IMG/VR virus record: IMGVR_UViG_3300030376_008412 | Location: 1 to 38,255 of that record | DNA length: 38,255 nt | Direction: 5' to 3' (one strand) | From: a virus | Taxonomy: Duplodnaviria > Caudoviricetes | Shown here: positions 22,251-31,111 of the stretch, one piece after another | Position numbering within the stretch: position 1 is the first letter of the stretch | Layout: every line of letters starts with the position of its first letter | Translations under genes and position numbers: made by a program | Notes under the pieces: generated by a model | Database searches by the model: none | Told to the model about the DNA's origin: nothing | Seen by the model: the letters and a program-made list of their open reading frames with translations, nothing else

Positions 22251-22904
22251 TTATTTATTCTTCATTAACATTGCTGGAAAACTGAATACAATTTCTTTCT
22301 GTACTCTTTCTCCAGTTATAAACTTCTTAACAGTATTAACTATAAAGCTCCCACTCATATTAGAGCAATAACTAGTAGCCTTACTAGTACAAGGTTCTGG
22401 ATCTCCCTCACTATCAGGATACCATTTCTTCTCATAGCTTTTAACTGTTGGTTTAGCAAAGAAATACTGCTGATATTGTTCTGCTCCCATTCTACCGTCT
22501 ACAATAAATAGCGGTTTAATCCTAGGGTTTTCGCATAAAACTTTAACAGCATCTAATCTTGATTGCATTGAATCAAATCCTAATATAGCAACATCATTGT
22601 CACCTTGATATTCGAATATTTCAAATAATCCATCAAAGCTTTTAACTGTAGCGCTGCTATTAATGCTTAAGATATGATCTTTTAGTGCATTTACTTTAGG
22701 CTTGTTTACATCATTTAATATATAATGTGATACACCTATGTTCTCAAGACTAACTCTGTCCATATCATATAAACAGAATTTTTCTGCACCCATTCTTGCT
22801 AATTGGATAGCTGTGGAACTGCCAATAGCTCCACAACCTAATATATGAAAATAATAGTTGTCCAATCCTTCAACTATATCTTTAAAACGAGTAGTAATTG
22901 ACAT
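22251..22904 (-). CDS. ThiF/MoeB-family E1-like adenylyltransferase
   Basis: ILGCGAIGS...LARMG...YDMDRVSLENIG...KVNAL, D...SR, DGRMG. Candidate catalytic Cys in EPCTSKAT. Confidence 0.92.
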   Translation of the reverse strand: MSITTRFKDIVEGLDNYYFHILGCGAIGSSTAIQLARMGAEKFCLYDMDRVSLENIGVSHYILNDVNKPKVNALKDHILSINSSATVKSFDGLFEIFEYQGDNDVAILGFDSMQSRLDAVKVLCENPRIKPLFIVDGRMGAEQYQQYFFAKPTVKSYEKKWYPDSEGDPEPCTSKATSYCSNMSGSFIVNTVKKFITGERVQKEIVFSFPAMLMKNK

Positions 22905-22914
22905 TCATTTCTCC

Positions 22915-23820
22915 TTATTGATACCATCCACTTTTCCAAGAAAGCTCAGTTATTAATACTGATTCTATATCTTCAAACTTTTGATTTACGTCTATAAAAT
23001 CAGCAGGTTCTTTATAATGAATAGTTGTATCATCTTCTTTAAAGTCTTTTATTTCAAATCCCGCTTCAGCAGTTTTTAATTGCATATTGCAAACACGAAT
23101 TTGTTTGTTAACTTCATTGTAATCAACTTCTCCACCCATAAGCTCTCCCATTAATTGGTCTAGCATGTCCCATGTTTGTTTGTAGTATCTTTCAAACGTA
23201 GCATTTTCAATAGTATTTTCATTAATACTGTCAATTGCTTTGTAATTATTAATATTAAATAAATTACTTTGATTGCCATTCTTATATGAATTTATTTTAC
23301 TACTATAGCTTGAAGTTTGTGTAGAGCACTTATCATTTACTTCTTTAATAATTGATTTAGGGACTTCTTTTTCATTATTCTCAATTAATAGTTCAACATC
23401 TTTGTGCACCTCAATGGGCTCCCAGACAGAAACTCTTAATTTATACTCTTCTTTAAGATTTACTACTAAAGCAAAGCTAAAATCTCCTTCATTAAACTCT
23501 TCAATAGCTTCTAAGTCTGTTGAGGACCAGAATGCTGCCATTGTATGATGAGAATGCCACCATAAGAATCTATATTCAGCATTTTTATACTTTTTGCTAG
23601 ATGCTATTTTAGTATAGTATTTTGCTAATTCATCTTTTTGCAACACAGTGTTGCCTCCAGATATTACTTGCTTAAGTATTACTGGATCTTCAATCCACCA
23701 ATCATCATCTTTTTTGATGCATACTGCCATTCCACCTATTTCAGCTCTGTGTAAATCATATGCAGCTTCAGAATAGTTTATAATCTTTTTCCAGGACTTA
23801 CTATCTATGTGAATTTCCAT
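22915..23820 (-). CDS. JAB/MPN+ (JAMM) metalloprotease with C-terminal extension
   Basis: EIGG...WWHSHHTMAAFWSSTD fits the E-xn-HxH-x7-S-xx-D JAMM motif. Confidence 0.9.
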   Translation of the reverse strand: MEIHIDSKSWKKIINYSEAAYDLHRAEIGGMAVCIKKDDDWWIEDPVILKQVISGGNTVLQKDELAKYYTKIASSKKYKNAEYRFLWWHSHHTMAAFWSSTDLEAIEEFNEGDFSFALVVNLKEEYKLRVSVWEPIEVHKDVELLIENNEKEVPKSIIKEVNDKCSTQTSSYSSKINSYKNGNQSNLFNINNYKAIDSINENTIENATFERYYKQTWDMLDQLMGELMGGEVDYNEVNKQIRVCNMQLKTAEAGFEIKDFKEDDTTIHYKEPADFIDVNQKFEDIESVLITELSWKSGWYQ

Positions 23821-23968
23821 TCTTTTTACTCCTTAAATAATGTTTCATAGTATCTAATTTTATAAATATATGATCATCTGGGCGAAATAATTCAATCCAA
23901 TGTTTTTTCTCCTCTTCATAATACATATCTATAATATCGTTTAAAGCATTTTTTGTATTTGTATCCAT
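23801..23968 (-). CDS. Small hypothetical protein within the Ubl module
   Basis: Likely start MDTNTKN with GGAGG SD; overlaps the JAB start. Confidence 0.6.
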   Translation of the reverse strand: MDTNTKNALNDIIDMYYEEEKKHWIELFRPDDHIFIKLDTMKHYLRSKKNGNSHR

Positions 23969-23979
23969 AATTCCTCCAA

Positions 23980-24089
23980 TATTAAAAGAGAGCCTCACAT
24001 ATTCCTTTGCCTGTCAGTATTGGTCGGGTATCTACGGGACTGACTGCCATTTAGGACTTACAGGACCAGTTATTGGCTCTCTCTTAATA
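23980..24089 (-). ncRNA. Structured RNA candidate directly after the Ubl gene
   Basis: 15-bp closing stem UAUUAAGAGAGAGCC/GGCUCUCUUUUAAUA (one G-U on minus strand). Inner GUCAGU/ACUGAC helix and potential UGGUC/GACCA pseudoknot. Confidence 0.6.
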
Positions 24090-24099
24090 AACTTAAATA

Positions 24100-24318
24100 T
24101 TACTGATTGCCACCAGTTTTGTTACTGATAACAGCAGCTACTTGATCATCATCTTGTAGCTCATAAGTATCCGTAACATCTCTACCATTAACAGATATGC
24201 TAGCACCATTAGGTATTTCCATTTCTGTTCTTAGTTGAGATATAGTTCCAGATTGAACTTCTGTATCTACAAAGCGTGCGCCTCTCAAGTATTTAATTGT
24301 TTTTGTTGTTGTTGACAT
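24100..24318 (-). CDS. Ubiquitin-like (beta-grasp, ThiS/MoaD-like) protein with pro-extension
   Basis: 72 aa: TISQLR...ISVNGRDV...YELQDDDQVAAV...KTGGNQ; AGGAG SD. Confidence 0.88.
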   Translation of the reverse strand: MSTTTKTIKYLRGARFVDTEVQSGTISQLRTEMEIPNGASISVNGRDVTDTYELQDDDQVAAVISNKTGGNQ

Positions 24319-24340
24319 TGTTGTCTCCTTGTTTAATTAA

Positions 24341-26116
24341 TTAAAACGGTACTTTTTTCCATACTCCATCTATATCTTCATACCATCCTTCACCATGTCC
24401 TACTGCAGTGAACTTCTTTAGATCAGGTGTGATAGAAGAATTAGAATCTTTTTTCTTTTCTTTAGGTTTAACCCATTTGAAATATTCATTAGCCTTATCA
24501 AAATCTATATTTAAATCCTTATATGATAAAGTGTAATCTTCTTGTTCAATATAAAGCATATCTTCTTCAATAAAACTAATTGAGGTAGCTATTAAATCAT
24601 CTTCATATAACTTGAAATCATTTATTAATAGTTCTTTGAACCTACCATTACCAAAATGTTGGTTCCACATATATTCTAAATGATTACATGAATTAATTAT
24701 TGTAGCAGGATTACCTTTAAATGGTAAACAGTCATTTTCATGCATCCATTCTTCTTTTTCATTTAACATATCTTTGAAGAATATCATGTATGATATGAGT
24801 CTTGAATTTTCTCTGTGTTTATCTAAGAATTTATAAATATCTTCAAAATCAGAATCACTAAGCATTATATCTTCTATCTTATCATTTCCTATTTCAGATA
24901 TTTCCATAAGAACAGCTTCTCTCTTATATTGAAAACTTTCATCAAAATTCTCTTTATAAAAGCTGCAACTATTCTTTAGAGAACAATTCATTTTATTGCA
25001 ATAAACATCTTCTAACTCTATATTGCTTCCAAGCTCTTCATGATCACCAGGATACATACATGATTCTGCAGAAGTATGATTCCTTACTATTGTAAGCAAC
25101 CTTTCATCGAAACTTGAAGGTCTTCCATAAAATAGCATAGAAATATCATTCATTGGTGCAGTTTTGTTTACCACGTATGTGCTCATCCATTTATTAAAAT
25201 GATAAAAGAATGATGTATAGTCTAATTGTAGCAAAGCTATTCTCATGTCTGATTGCAATTCTCCTTCACAGATATATTCCCACTTAGTTCTATTTCTTGT
25301 ATTACGACTCATGTAAGGATGTAGTAATCTTCTATTGTCATTAACACAATATCTAGCTTTAACTGCATATGAGTCCCAGCTACCTATTCTAGTTACATAG
25401 TTTTGACTCCTATATCTAGCATTAGGTAATTGAGTAATATTTTCTATAGAATTATTACATAATGAGTTTATCCATTTGACTATAGGTATTTGAAAGCAAA
25501 CCTGTATAGGCCATTGAAGTTCAATAGGTTGATTGACAGGTTCAGAACTTGTATCGTTAGCAATAGTTACATTTATTTCATGACCTTTCTTTACTGTGCA
25601 TAATACATACAATAAAGGTATGTTGCTTTCTAAGTCATTCTTATCTATAAATGCATCGATATGAATAGTACTTGAACCAGAATTAAATAGCTCTTCAATT
25701 ACTTTATCTTTTACAAATTTAAACTTTTCTATAACAACATCAGAGTTATCTTGAAATTCAGCATTTGAGCTCCTTAAATCGTCTAACAGATTTTGCAAAC
25801 TATTTAGTTCTTGTTTAAAGTTTCTATATCTCCATGTAGACTGATCTATTTTATTTAAGAAAGTAGATACTTTACTTGTTCTAACATTCCAGCCTAGTAT
25901 ATCAGTATAAGCTTTTCTAATCTTATTATATATACCAGGAGACCATCTAAATGTCTTGGTAACCCCTATATCAGAATTATATCTGTAATTAAAGTCTTCA
26001 ACCTTCTCTAATATTTCTTTTTGAGGGCCCAGTAACACTTGTTCTGACAGATTCTCTATTTGACTGTTACTTATTTCATCTAGAGAGATTTTTTCAAAGT
26101 TTGGATCTACAAACAT
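24341..26116 (-). CDS. Multidomain protein with putative prokaryotic E2-like domain
   Basis: LLHPYM-x11-ICEGE (HP...C-x-G) followed by helices and Y...P. Also a Cys cluster SC...CNKMNCSLKNSC. Adjacent to Ubl, JAB and E1. Confidence 0.6.
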   Translation of the reverse strand: MFVDPNFEKISLDEISNSQIENLSEQVLLGPQKEILEKVEDFNYRYNSDIGVTKTFRWSPGIYNKIRKAYTDILGWNVRTSKVSTFLNKIDQSTWRYRNFKQELNSLQNLLDDLRSSNAEFQDNSDVVIEKFKFVKDKVIEELFNSGSSTIHIDAFIDKNDLESNIPLLYVLCTVKKGHEINVTIANDTSSEPVNQPIELQWPIQVCFQIPIVKWINSLCNNSIENITQLPNARYRSQNYVTRIGSWDSYAVKARYCVNDNRRLLHPYMSRNTRNRTKWEYICEGELQSDMRIALLQLDYTSFFYHFNKWMSTYVVNKTAPMNDISMLFYGRPSSFDERLLTIVRNHTSAESCMYPGDHEELGSNIELEDVYCNKMNCSLKNSCSFYKENFDESFQYKREAVLMEISEIGNDKIEDIMLSDSDFEDIYKFLDKHRENSRLISYMIFFKDMLNEKEEWMHENDCLPFKGNPATIINSCNHLEYMWNQHFGNGRFKELLINDFKLYEDDLIATSISFIEEDMLYIEQEDYTLSYKDLNIDFDKANEYFKWVKPKEKKKDSNSSITPDLKKFTAVGHGEGWYEDIDGVWKKVPF

Positions 26117-27814: not shown

Positions 27815-28030
27815 TTACTTACGCCTGTCTCCATAGAATCGTCTATCATAATGACCATCTCTACATATTTGATCCATTCCAGATCTCCAAGCGTTATGTC
27901 CAACAGCACGAAAGCCTAGTCTAGGATTAAAGAACTCATCAACAGTCATATCTTTAACTCTAGCCCATTGGACATTAAATCTTTTAAACCCTAATTTCTT
28001 ACCATCAGAGTATAATTCTTTTAATTTCAT
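27815..28030 (-). CDS. Hypothetical basic protein
   Basis: 71 aa, GGAG SD. Confidence 0.6.
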   Translation of the reverse strand: MKLKELYSDGKKLGFKRFNVQWARVKDMTVDEFFNPRLGFRAVGHNAWRSGMDQICRDGHYDRRFYGDRRK

Positions 28031-28057
28031 AGATTCTCCAATTAATTTTAAAATTGC

Positions 28058-28545
28058 TTAAGAAGCTTGGTGAAGGATTTGAGATTACCTTCAAAATGTC
28101 TAGTTCATATGGGATTTCTCCTCACGATGTATAGAATCATAGCTGTCGCTACTGGCCTCATGCTCACTTGCGCTCGTTTACAGATTAGCCTAAAGGGAAT
28201 GGATATTACTTATTGGTCCCTCATTCTATCTTATACAGCCCTGAACATGAGCATAGTATAAGTTAACACCGCAACCAAATCTCTACCCTTTCGGGCTTTA
28301 TTTAATTGTATTCGACATTTGCCATACTTAAGGGCATCCTCCCTCTTTCACCTCGTTCATTTGAACTTAGTGTCAGCCAACGCTGAAAGTATGCTGATGT
28401 AGGCCTTTGGAAACAAGCCTTTCACATCATTACCAACTAAGATATCATTAAACCACCTCGGTCTAGACTTTTATACATAATACCTAAGTATTAAAGCTAA
28501 TACAATATACCGTCGCATATTATACTAATAATATCAACTTCTTAA
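28058..28545 (-). ncRNA. Large (~490 nt) ornate structured RNA candidate
   Basis: Ends pair (UUAAGAAG/CUUCUUAA). Many nested helices, a GCCC-GAAA-GGGU tetraloop and a candidate pseudoknot. No SD-led ORF. Confidence 0.65.
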
Positions 28546-28550
28546 ATTTT

Positions 28551-28623: not shown

Positions 28624-28860
28624 TTACCAGAAGCCTATCCATTTAGTCTTACGATAGCTTCTATCTGAATACTCACGTCTATTCCTTACAATACTGGTAT
28701 AAACGTCTTCCACTTTGTTGCATTCAGCTTGAGTATACTTGCCATATTTCATATCATATTTTTCACCACAATGAGTACAAGCATAATCATTAAATCTCGA
28801 ACAGCTATTCATGGTTGCTGCCTCACCACAATCACATCTTACCATAGTATCCATAGACAT
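28624..28860 (-). CDS. Small zinc-ribbon protein
   Basis: RCDCG...ACTHCG; AGGAG SD. Confidence 0.65.
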   Translation of the reverse strand: MSMDTMVRCDCGEAATMNSCSRFNDYACTHCGEKYDMKYGKYTQAECNKVEDVYTSIVRNRREYSDRSYRKTKWIGFW

Positions 28861-29164: not shown

Positions 29165-29331
29165 TCATTACCCTCCTCAATATATTTAACTTCACATCCA
29201 GAATCTAAAGAAGCTTGAACATATCCAACTAAGTATCCCACAGATTTATGCATAGGATCGCCAGACACATCTAATTCTTTAGTTACACAAAACTTACCAT
29301 CCTTACTTATTAACAACTTTATCTTATTCAT
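29161..29331 (-). CDS. Small hypothetical protein (56 aa)
   Basis: MNKIKLLISKDGKFCV...EEGNE*, GGAGG SD. Confidence 0.65.
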   Translation of the reverse strand: MNKIKLLISKDGKFCVTKELDVSGDPMHKSVGYLVGYVQASLDSGCEVKYIEEGNE

Positions 29332-29413
29332 TTATAAAACCTCCATAGTTATTATTGTCAAGTATTATTGGGTATTATACTACAAAAATAGTAGTATTTT
29401 ACTACAAAATTTA

Positions 29414-29534
29414 TTGCTATAATGGTGCACACACAGTTTAGTTCCTTCCCTACTAACTCATAAGTTAACAGTTTGAGCCTGTTAGATCTCAATCCCTCAT
29501 GTTTAGAGTGGGTATCCACTGATCATTATAGCAA
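29414..29534 (-). ncRNA. Structured RNA candidate
   Basis: TTGCTATAATG/CATTATAGCAA 11-bp closing stem; inner AGUGG/CCACU and UAACAG/CUGUUA hairpins. Confidence 0.5.
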
Positions 29535-29550
29535 ATTACATTAATTCCGT

Positions 29551-29666
29551 GCCACCTCTCCTTAGATCATCATGTTATACGTTTCGACTGCAAGGTACGG
29601 TGTCTTACGCTTAAACACTGGTAAAGAGAGGTTGAGATATAAACACCTTACTGTCTTATCTCTGGC
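29551..29666 (-). ncRNA. Structured RNA candidate immediately 3' of the tmRNA-like gene
   Basis: GCCA/UGGC closing helix with GAGAUA/UAUCUC and ACCUCUC/GAGAGGU arms (three-way junction). Confidence 0.45.
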
Positions 29667-29671
29667 TTGAG

Positions 29672-29749
29672 TGGAGCTGGTGAGAATCGAACTCACGTCT
29701 TGATGAAAACTCTTTCAAGTCTTAACATCAATCGAAACCATTCAGCCCC
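29672..29749 (-). ncRNA. Minimal tmRNA-like RNA (tRNA-like domain only, 78 nt)
   Basis: GGGGCUG-AAUGGUUUCGA-[helix 2 capped by GAAA]-GAC-GUGAG UUCGAUU CUCAC-CAGCUCC-A. Shows tmRNA 5' and 3' ends, a G3-U70 pair and a stemless D-loop. Confidence 0.8.
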
Positions 29750-29756
29750 TATAAAT

Positions 29757-29872
29757 GAGAGATAGCTATGTATCATAGTATTAAATGGGCCTAGATTGCC
29801 TATCTAACGTATGATTACAAAAGGTTCAAGGGTTCAACCCTATCGGCTCTTTACATAGCTTTCTAGTCTCTC
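29757..29872 (-). ncRNA. Structured RNA candidate
   Basis: GAGAGA/TCTCTC plus AGCTATGTA/TACATAGCT closing helices. Confidence 0.45.
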
Positions 29873-30002
29873 TTAAGCCTTTTAATGTACCTAGTCAACT
29901 AACACAACAGTTAGTCCCAAATGTACGCAAACACCTAATTGGTGTCTTCCTCACATTGCTTAGGAGGCTCGAAGGGCAGTTTAACCTATTAACTACCAAG
30001 GT

Positions 30003-30176
30003 ATTGTTCACTCATTAGTGTGTTACTTTGTAAGGCTAACACCTACCTGTATTACTAGTATAACATATTAGGTTAAGCCATATGTTAGGGCTAATTAAGT
30101 ATACACATTCCCATATCGCCCGCCTTCATCATATGGTATTTTACTCAAAGAGTTGCAGCTGTACTGCATGAACAAT
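30003..30176 (-). ncRNA. Multi-branch structured RNA candidate
   Basis: ATTGTTCA/TGAACAAT closing stem with four inner hairpins (GTGTTA, TAACATAT, CCATAT and TGCAG arms). Confidence 0.5.
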
Positions 30177-30195
30177 CTTAAATGTATATAAATAG

Positions 30196-30268
30196 TTACG
30201 GGGACAGGAGTCGAACCTGCTGTCTCTAGCTTATGAGGCTAGCGAGTAAACCGTTTCTCTCACCCGTA
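30196..30268 (-). tRNA. tRNA with CAT anticodon (Met, or Ile2 if lysidine-modified)
   Basis: UACGGGU...CUAGC-CUCAUAA-GCUAG...GCAGG-UUCGACU-CCUGU-CCCCGUA-A cloverleaf. One acceptor mismatch; CCA not encoded. Confidence 0.85.
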
Positions 30269-30286
30269 TTAATTACAAAAGCTAAA

Positions 30287-30629
30287 AGAGAGAGACTACA
30301 CAAAAGGATTTTCACCTTCACCATACCCCGTCTACGTGCATTTACTTTCGCACACCCCATCTCTCTCTCTAACATTAAATTACATGTACACACACCGTGT
30401 TTGTTCCTAGAGTTCGCCTGACCGTATTGTCTCCAAACATGTAAAGTTTCCTATAAGTTTCTATATATTACTTGCACACACACGCACAGTATTAGACTGG
30501 TTTCCATTAACCATGAGTAAAGAGTTGGTTAGTGTACTGTATTGTGCTAAAACCATGCGTTTGTGCTAGCAATAGTAGTTATAGTATGTTAAAAGAGAAG
30601 ATAGTCCGCTATCACCTGGAGTCTTCTCT
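30287..30629 (-). ncRNA. Four further stem-closed elements upstream of the tRNA
   Basis: AGAGAGAGA/TCTCTCTCT (30287-30370), TTACATGT/ACATGTAA (30380-30444), a nested GCACA/TGTGC unit (30474-30566) and AGAGAAGA/TCTTCTCT (30594-30629). Confidence 0.45.
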
Positions 30630-30905: not shown

Positions 30906-31111
30906 ACGATCTCCTTTCTTATTATAAAAAGTTAAAGAAAAACAAAAAAAACAAGCATAAAGATTCAAAAAAATCAAATGAAAAAAAACGAAAGTCGCTT
31001 TGCGACCAACCGCCAATGGCGGGCACCTACTCTATATTTACCTACATACCAAAATGCTACAATTTTTGAAACTAGCTTGATTTTTAATAGCAAATAGTGT
31101 TAGGTTCTACC

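What the first reader, a model, noticed from the sequence alone, without database searches (positions are those of the whole stretch)
28058..28545. ~490-nt ornate non-coding RNA candidate
Seen on the minus strand: terminal UUAAGAAG/CUUCUUAA; long-range AUUGUAUU/AAUACAAU, CAUACUU/AAGUAUG, CUUAGU/ACUAAG and AUAGAAU/AUUCUAU; hairpins GAUGU/ACAUC, UCAGC/GCUGA, GCCC-GAAA-GGGU and UGAAGG/CCUUCA. A CUUAUAC/GUAUAAG hairpin has a loop (AUGCUCA) complementary to downstream UGAGCAU, a pseudoknot. Known: large ornate RNAs (ROOL, GOLLD) occur in phages near tRNAs. Inference: a member of such a class or a new one.
Basis: partly seen in the sequence, partly recalled or inferred. Interest (0 to 1): 0.8.

Follow-up and report, generated by a model that had tools for sequence, protein, structure and literature searches.

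The report
Double-size relative of cage-forming manA RNA
A gene-free 490-base stretch of an uncultured phage genome is very likely a folded RNA gene, a double-size relative of the small manA RNA, whose matching loop pairs are predicted to clip copies together into rings or cages; expression and assembly are untested.

Summary
The RNA fold is real. The minus strand 28057-28546 folds far better than shuffles (z -5.7). I found 22 distinct close homologues and 13 distant loci, all in uncultured phage or metagenome records. Across 20 aligned sequences, 93% of cells pair and 62 of 95 pairs change on both sides. It is not GOLLD, ROOL or OLE. It is a relative of manA (RF01745) at about twice the size: a model built only from the distant relatives' 5' hairpin plus four-way junction ranks this RNA first in the window (E 4e-4) and hits the matching part of manA in 60 of 60 manA loci (best E 2e-6). 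It misses Rfam's manA cut-off. A second hairpin plus four-way junction is nested inside, and three loop-loop pairings covary. manA was recently shown to build pentamers and cages through such loops, so self-assembly is the likeliest mechanism (about 0.55, untested). Sister phages carry GOLLD at the same genomic slot instead. This scan noted a homologue before on another genome (e1-6317023).

The parts
28057..28546 (-). Large manA-like RNA, 490 nt, closed by P1 (28546-28536 with 28067-28057)
   Evidence: z -5.69; P1 of 5 bp or more in 17 of 18 long homologues, lengths 404-490 nt
28438..28535 (-). Variable P2 arm (98 nt here, 50-61 nt in 16 of 18) with a GACG tetraloop at 28514-28511, like the GACG hairpin that opens manA
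   Evidence: GACG in 9 of 18; GACG in the first 20 nt of 46 of 64 manA sequences
28323..28437 (-). Outer manA-homologous module: P3 5' strand (28436-28433), hairpin P4 (28428-28396), four-way junction A = P5 with P5a (loop GUUG 28381-28378), P5b, P5c (loop AGGAUG 28340-28335)
   Evidence: top hit of model R2 in the window, 23.7 bits, E 3.7e-4; R2 hits manA P3-P7; coordinates
28272..28320 (-). P6 5' strand (28320-28314) and P7 with GNRA hairpin P7a; kissing strand GAGAU 28283-28279 (pairs with L15)
   Evidence: (helices 7-9)
28125..28271 (-). Inner module absent from manA: P8 closing hairpin P9 (loop strand GUUCA 28246-28242) and four-way junction B = P10 with P11 (loop holds UAUCC 28205-28201), P12 and P13 (invariant GACA loop)
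   Evidence: helices 10-18; two P13 pairs covary at E<0.05; coordinates
28094..28124 (-). P14 (UGAGGA-GAAA-UCCCA), linker with kissing strand UGAAC 28107-28103 (pairs with L9), P6 3' strand
   Evidence: (helices 12, 19)
28067..28093 (-). Terminal hairpin P15 with 11-nt loop (kissing strand AUCUC 28085-28081), followed directly by the P3 3' strand; counterpart of manA P9
29669..29749 (-). Mini-tmRNA (tRNA-like domain only, no tag reading frame); companion RNA of the same region
   Evidence: Rfam tmRNA 60.5 bits with 300 model positions replaced by 9 nt
30195..30268 (-). tRNA-Met(CAT); companion RNA, 1.65 kb upstream on the same strand

Best explanation
This is very likely a stand-alone phage RNA gene, a manA relative enlarged to about twice the size by a nested second hairpin and four-way junction, and it is predicted to self-assemble into RNA-only rings or cages through loop-loop kissing, as manA does in vitro. 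Shown: the fold and its covariation; kinship of the 5' module with manA P3-P7; the same outer helix order as manA (GACG arm, closing helix, hairpin, four-way junction, long arm, terminal 11-nt-loop hairpin); three covarying loop-loop pairings (L7-L15, L9-linker, L5c-L11); GOLLD at the same slot in sister phages. Inferred: it is co-transcribed leftwards with tRNA-Met and the mini-tmRNA and P1 protects its ends; L7-L15 corresponds to manA L8-L9', L9-linker to L3-L8', and L5c-L11 (perhaps also L5a-L13) to L5-L7', now running between two different junctions; some of these contacts join neighbouring molecules and close a ring or cage; the particle serves as an optional scaffold or decoy during infection and is exchangeable with GOLLD. 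The physiological job is the weakest step.
For: 93.1% of 1872 cells pair, 62 of 95 pairs change on both sides, slid controls 37-44%. Blind scan: 3 pairs at E<0.05, all canonical. Loop pairings: L9-linker 4 bp or more in 20 of 20, L7-L15 in 17 of 20, four wrong-partner controls in 1-2 of 20; L5c-L11 3 bp or more in 20 of 20 against 3-11 of 20 for controls. In the window both L5c and L11 changed together (GGAUG/UAUCC), and L281 swaps C-G for U-A. Model R2 (six distant relatives, no manA, no window): window top hit E 3.7e-4; 5' module hit in 18 of 18 homologue loci, one a training sequence, E 5e-15 to 0.93; manA hit in register in 60 of 60 loci, 14 at E<0.003, 29 at E<0.05, best non-manA hit 12.3 bits; manA is the top hit of the whole S-SSM7 (E 2e-4) and S-CREM1 (E 0.1) genomes. 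R2 gives GOLLD at most 6.7 bits. Rfam manA aligns end to end on homologue L134 (20.2 bits, E 0.005). manA forms pentamers, 8-, 10- and 60-mers via L5-L7', L8-L9' and L3-L8' (bioRxiv 10.64898/2026.07.01.735769). Slot exchange: L035 (GOLLD) is sister to L038 (this RNA), and L060 (GOLLD) groups with L046 (distant form), both starred in the small-terminase tree. No GOLLD in 5 of 5 near-complete carriers; no R2 hit in the two GOLLD genomes.
Against: No Rfam manA hit on the window itself or above cut-off in any homologue. Models of the 3' half (R1) and of the inner module (R3) do not find manA, and R3 does not find the 5' module, so an internal duplication is unproven. R2 missed manA in 2 of 4 manA-bearing genomes under the fast first look. 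R2's training rows and structure were chosen by me as the most manA-like, the 60 manA loci are close kin, and E-values are rough (R1 gave an unexplained E 0.0014 hit). The kissing pairs are not individually significant in the blind scan (E 2.4-6.2). One clade (3 of 20) breaks L7-L15. L5a-L13 is only 2 Watson-Crick pairs and a same-junction L5a-L5c pairing is possible in 15 of 20. Covariation cannot tell pairing within a molecule from pairing between molecules.
Confidence: 0.55

Rival explanations
1. Same RNA and same kinship, but the doubling turned manA's between-molecule contacts into within-molecule ones, so it is a compact monomer or dimer that binds a host or phage protein or acts as a decoy.
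For: All three covarying kisses join loops of the same chain, and the two four-way junctions are cross-complementary. OLE, another large ornate RNA, is only a dimer (bioRxiv 10.64898/2026.07.01.735769).
Against: The corresponding manA contacts are intermolecular. A ROOL pairing first read as tertiary from covariation proved quaternary (PMC12286853). The RNA swaps with the cage-former GOLLD at one slot.
Confidence: 0.24
2. It is a cis-acting leader or riboswitch that controls the downstream genes, as first proposed for manA.
For: A ribosome-binding site and start codon lie within 80 nt downstream in 19 of 26 loci, 26 nt in the window. manA was described in potential 5' UTRs (PMC2864571).
Against: The downstream proteins are mostly unrelated and short; 7 of 26 loci have no nearby start. 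In L015 the mini-tmRNA follows 4 nt later, and in L223 and L307 the RNA starts right after tRNA-Met. No terminator-like site lies in or next to the RNA. manA in S-CREM1 sits exactly between two tRNAs.
Confidence: 0.1
3. It is an unrelated new class whose likeness to manA is convergence on a common hairpin plus four-way-junction layout.
For: R1 and R3 miss manA. A sequence-only manA profile puts only 6 of 26 family members above the 95th percentile of 520 shuffles, best 6.4 bits.
Against: R3 has the same layout and finds no manA, while R2 finds 60 of 60 in register with shared junction letters. tRNA-bearing loci and GOLLD score at most 7.3 and 6.7 bits off-target. The six weak profile hits all fall on the predicted counterparts.
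Confidence: 0.08
4. It is a ribozyme or the remnant of a mobile intron or RNase P-like RNA.
For: Size, multi-branch fold and patchy distribution among related phages.
Against: No Rfam ribozyme, intron or RNase P match at E<=10 or in 8 homologue loci at E<=5. It interrupts no gene and has no fixed partner ORF.
Confidence: 0.03

Closest known systems
manA RNA (Rfam RF01745; PMC2864571; cryo-EM in bioRxiv 10.64898/2026.07.01.735769)
   Same: Outer helix order; 5' hairpin plus four-way junction found by one model in both; terminal GG-UA...AAU-CC hairpin on the closing helix; GACG hairpin at the 5' end in half the members; a kiss between the long arm and the terminal loop; phage-borne, next to tRNAs.
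   Different: 404-490 nt against 189-242 nt; an extra closing stem P1; a second hairpin and four-way junction plus P14 nested in the long arm; junction loops pair across junctions (L5c-L11) instead of GGU/ACC within one; below the Rfam cut-off; found in podovirus-like phages of unknown host, not T4-like cyanophages.
GOLLD RNA (RF02032)
   Same: Large ornate phage RNA near tRNA-Met; occupies the same genomic slot, in L035 also directly before a mini-tmRNA; cage-forming (PMC12286853).
   Different: No match of the GOLLD model here and no match of my models to GOLLD; about half the length reported for many GOLLD members.
ROOL (RF03087) and OLE (RF01071)
   Same: Size class, multi-pseudoknot fold, RNA-only multimers.
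   Different: No match at E<=10; no positive control was run for these two models.

Membership tests
manA (RF01745) | Score at or above the Rfam cut-off (55.2 bits) | tested here: not met
   No hit on the window; best homologue 20.2 bits; positive controls 123-182 bits
manA (RF01745) | Hairpin followed by a four-way junction (P3-P7) | tested here: met
   R2 hits the window (E 3.7e-4) and 60 of 60 manA loci in register
manA (RF01745) | Terminal hairpin with GG-UA...AAU-CC loop directly before the closing strand | tested here: met
   P15 97.5% paired; aligned by the Rfam model; weak profile hits at model positions 150-189
manA (RF01745) | L5 GUGGUG complementary to L7 ACC in the same junction | tested here: not met
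   Present in 64 of 64 manA. Here replaced by cross-junction L5c-L11; the same-junction pairing is 1 Watson-Crick pair in the window
manA (RF01745) | Kiss between the long arm (L8) and the terminal loop (L9) | tested here: met
   L7-L15 4 bp or more in 17 of 20, with both-side changes at 3 of 5 pairs; the loop correspondence is inferred
manA (RF01745) | Length about 200 nt, one junction module | tested here: not met
   404-490 nt, two junction modules
manA (RF01745) | Assembles into pentamer-based closed oligomers | not testable with these tools
   Needs SEC-MALS or cryo-EM
GOLLD (RF02032) | Match to the conserved 3' domain model | tested here: not met
   0 matches at E<=10, 7 candidates scored; the model rings at 173 and 155 bits in related phages
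ROOL (RF03087) / OLE (RF01071) | Match to the family model | tested here: not met
   no positive control rang
RNase P, group I/II introns | Match to family models; interrupting a host gene | tested here: not met
   None at E<=10; intergenic in all loci examined

The most novel reading that the evidence does not exclude
A manA protomer acquired a second copy of its own assembly module. The two junctions now kiss each other instead of themselves, building an RNA-only cage of a new geometry. Phages of one clade swap this RNA with the unrelated cage RNA GOLLD at a single genomic slot, so the two cage families do the same job.
Probability: 0.3. Interest if true: 0.9.

Novelty: new variant of a known kind. 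Interest (0 to 1): 0.72.

Why it matters
The function of RNA-only cages (GOLLD, ROOL, manA) is an open question. This family links the ~200-nt manA to the 400-500-nt class. It supplies natural compensatory swaps that name the likely assembly contacts before any structure is solved, and it shows sister phages carrying either GOLLD or a large manA-like RNA at the same slot. That gives a direct comparative handle on what the cages are for and how their geometry evolves, plus ready cryo-EM targets. It also argues against manA being a riboswitch.

Tried and rejected
Rfam at cut-off and at E<=10: nothing on the RNA. blastn against 50,697 GenBank phage records: 3 chance matches. GTDB genome scan: 14 pattern matches, none a homologue by nhmmer, so no host or prophage was found; the best cultured terminase match is 26% identical. 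Public RNA runs: none was listed, which says nothing about expression; read laying was therefore not used. Promoter scan: 10 sites against 16 expected by chance; one weak site at 28556-28528 overlaps the 5' end and is not trusted. Structure-aware MAFFT did not run, so all alignments are sequence-only, with known one-column register slips between subgroups in P4, P5, P5a and P7; P5 and P7 stems were left out of the pair count. Coding explanation rejected. R1 and R3 against manA were negative; R3 against the 5' module was negative. A candidate L5a partner in the distant group C (UAGU/ACUA) is broken in L003 and L011 and is not claimed. A 5' extension upstream of canonical manA was not seen in 4 cyanophage loci (looked at by eye). 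Six literature searches listed no description of a large manA-like RNA; subscription journals and supplementary alignments were not covered.

Full report
Setting. The window is a 38,255-nt linear viral record, 69% complete, with terminase, P22-like portal, DnaB primase-helicase, Sak4 and ThiF genes: a podovirus-like phage with no close cultured relative (best terminase 26%). The finding lies between a 78-codon ORF ending at 28624 and a 71-codon ORF starting at 28030, on the minus strand, downstream of tRNA-Met (30195-30268) and an 81-nt tmRNA-like gene (29669-29749).

Observation. The strand folds with z -5.69, the opposite strand with -2.35, and 32 other samples of the window no lower than -2.8. 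Rfam has no match on it at cut-off or at E<=10.

Homologues. One came from 69 loci around relatives of the small terminase. Others came from five pattern scans of viral contigs and one of metagenomes (the metagenome scan stopped at 34 of 64 parts), filtered by nhmmer. That gave 23 distinct sequences including the window. Three 5'-truncated ones (L138, L152, L264) were dropped; the other 20 form alignment A6 (mean identity 66%, minimum 50%; 13 effective sequences). Part of the apparent invariance of UCGUGAGG and AAAnCCC comes from the patterns used. Covariance models then found 13 more distant loci at the same slot upstream of the small terminase: L003, L005, L011, L015, L016, L020, L027, L042, L043, L046, L049, L050, L051, some near-identical to each other.

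Structure. P1 closes the molecule: a helix of 5 bp or more was found in 17 of 18 long homologues, in 16 of 18 at a near-constant distance, with different letters (a best-match search, so the constant position is the evidence). Inside are a variable P2 arm and P3, which closes P4, four-way junction A (P5), the long arm P6 and the terminal hairpin P15. P6 holds P7, P8 [hairpin P9 and four-way junction B] and P14. On the sequence-only alignment, 93.1% of 1872 cells pair, 62 of 95 pairs change on both sides, and slid controls give 37-44%. The structure was drawn from these sequences, which favours it over the slid versions, and P5 and P7 stems were omitted for register slips. A blind G-test with a tree-aware null gave 3 pairs at E<0.05, all canonical; 9 of the top 12 pairs are in the structure, three of them loop-loop pairs at E 2.4-6.2 (pair 161-303 was discovered there). 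The plus-strand ORF is broken in 19 of 19 homologues.

Loop-loop pairings. L9 with the linker after P14 (window GUUCA/UGAAC): 4 bp or more in 20 of 20, all five pairs with both-side changes. L7 with L15 (GAGAU/AUCUC): 4 bp or more in 17 of 20, broken in one clade of 3. L5c with L11: 3 bp or more in 20 of 20; the window changed both loops together (GGAUG/UAUCC). Four wrong-partner controls reach 4 bp in 1-2 of 20. L5a with the invariant GACA loop is only 2 Watson-Crick pairs and cannot be tested; a same-junction L5a-L5c pairing is possible in 15 of 20 with G-U pairs but is weak in the window.

Kinship with manA. I fetched true manA RNAs (64 distinct, 189-242 nt). Model R2 was built from the 5' module of six distant relatives only, with a structure that I set by hand and that RNAfold gives for L046 and L011; these rows were picked because they looked most manA-like. 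R2 ranks this RNA's 5' module first in the window (E 3.7e-4) and hits it in 18 of 18 homologue loci, one of them a training sequence. Given 60 manA loci (the 4 named ones and 56 of the 120 pattern loci), it aligns in register to manA P3-P7 in all 60, as top hit in 59, best 33.9 bits, against 12.3 bits for the best other hit. On whole genomes manA is the top hit in 2 of 4 carriers and missed in 2. Controls: R3, with the same hairpin-plus-junction shape, finds no manA at E<9; GOLLD scores 6.7 bits at most. Against: R1 (3' half) finds no manA, R3 does not find the 5' module, and a sequence-only manA profile is weak (6 of 26 above the 95th percentile of shuffles, all on predicted counterparts). 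So the outer scaffold is manA-related. That the inner module is a duplicate rests on layout and on the one Rfam alignment only.

Mechanism. In bioRxiv 10.64898/2026.07.01.735769 (I read parts 1-4 of 5 of the main text; figures and supplement not seen) manA RNAs form pentamers through intermolecular L5-L7', L8-L9' or L3-L8' kisses and close into 8-, 10- and 60-mers in vitro. I mapped the loop numbers from the Rfam structure and from complementarity in manA itself (L5/L7 in 64 of 64; CUGUA/UACAG the commonest L8/L9 pair); the paper's unseen supplement could correct this mapping. Each contact type has a positional counterpart here. I therefore infer self-assembly into rings or cages (0.55), with a compact monomer or dimer as the main rival (0.24), since doubling could make the contacts internal. 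PMC12286853 (passages) reports that a ROOL pairing first seen by covariation as tertiary was in fact between chains.

Context. ARAGORN calls a tRNA-Met near the RNA in 7 of 26 loci; in L015 the mini-tmRNA follows at once. Downstream genes are mostly unrelated, which speaks against a ligand-specific leader, the role first proposed for manA (PMC2864571, passages). In S-CREM1 manA lies exactly between two tRNAs (PMC9964418, passages). Of 19 terminase-relative loci without this RNA that I scanned with Rfam, 2 carry GOLLD at the same slot. In a 38-row small-terminase tree (rows with under 4 kb upstream and no RNA left out), L035 (GOLLD) is sister to L038 (this RNA) and L060 (GOLLD) groups with L046 (distant form). 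Five near-complete carriers have no GOLLD and the two GOLLD genomes have no R2 hit. The numbers are small and 'none' means only not detected. The RNA is thus optional cargo that appears exchangeable with another cage-forming RNA.

Novelty. It fails RF01745 membership (score, length, L5/L7 letters) but works from the same scaffold, so I file it as a new variant of a known kind. Six searches listed no large manA-like RNA; 10.1101/2020.02.04.933952 (passages) mentions manA only as an example. This scan reported a homologue earlier as a new ~400-nt RNA closest to manA (e1-6317023). What this report adds is the reciprocal model test, the kissing map and the exchange with GOLLD. Interest 0.72.

Noticed in passing
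window 29669-29749 (-); also L134 2990-3071, L111, L015 7348-7430, L035 2509-2590, L059 5170-5251: Tag-less mini-tmRNA of about 82 nt (tRNA-like domain only) recurs in this phage clade, directly after the large RNA in L015 and after GOLLD in L035. [quoted passage not shown]
   Followed up: partly
L035 2604-3013 (-); L060 2048-2467 (-): True GOLLD RNAs (173 and 155 bits) at the slot that holds the large manA-like RNA in sister phages.
   Followed up: partly
L016 3225-3655, L046, L020, L011, L005, L003 (group C); L050, L015, L042/L043 (group D): Distant subfamilies keep the 5' module and terminal hairpin; group C has a different interior in the long arm, and L042/L043 have extra hairpins in junction A. 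Group C returned no earlier finding.
   Followed up: partly
window 30285-30372 (-): An 88-nt stem-loop closed by GAGAGAGA/UCUCUCUC just upstream of tRNA-Met, z -3.6; no Rfam match.
   Followed up: partly
window 30435-30492 and 31044-31087 (-): Short non-coding motifs conserved in several related phages; the first does not fold well (z +0.5); possibly promoter or origin elements.
   Followed up: partly
window 29330-30190 (-): About 800 nt without an ORF of 60 codons on either side of the mini-tmRNA, with several hairpin-like stretches; may hold further small RNAs.
   Followed up: no
window 22251-26116 (-): ThiF/E1-like gene (Pfam ThiF) beside a 301-aa ORF with an HSH-containing motif, a 72-aa small ORF and a 591-aa ORF; recalls a prokaryotic ubiquitin-like conjugation cluster (recalled, not tested).
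   Followed up: no
L199, L223, L307, L312 (P4 region): A ~57-nt structured insertion in hairpin P4; three of these four also lose the L7-L15 pairing.
   Followed up: no
NC_015287.1 81204-81286 (+): Unexplained hit of model R1 (20.6 bits, E 0.0014) outside manA in Synechococcus phage S-SSM7.
   Followed up: no
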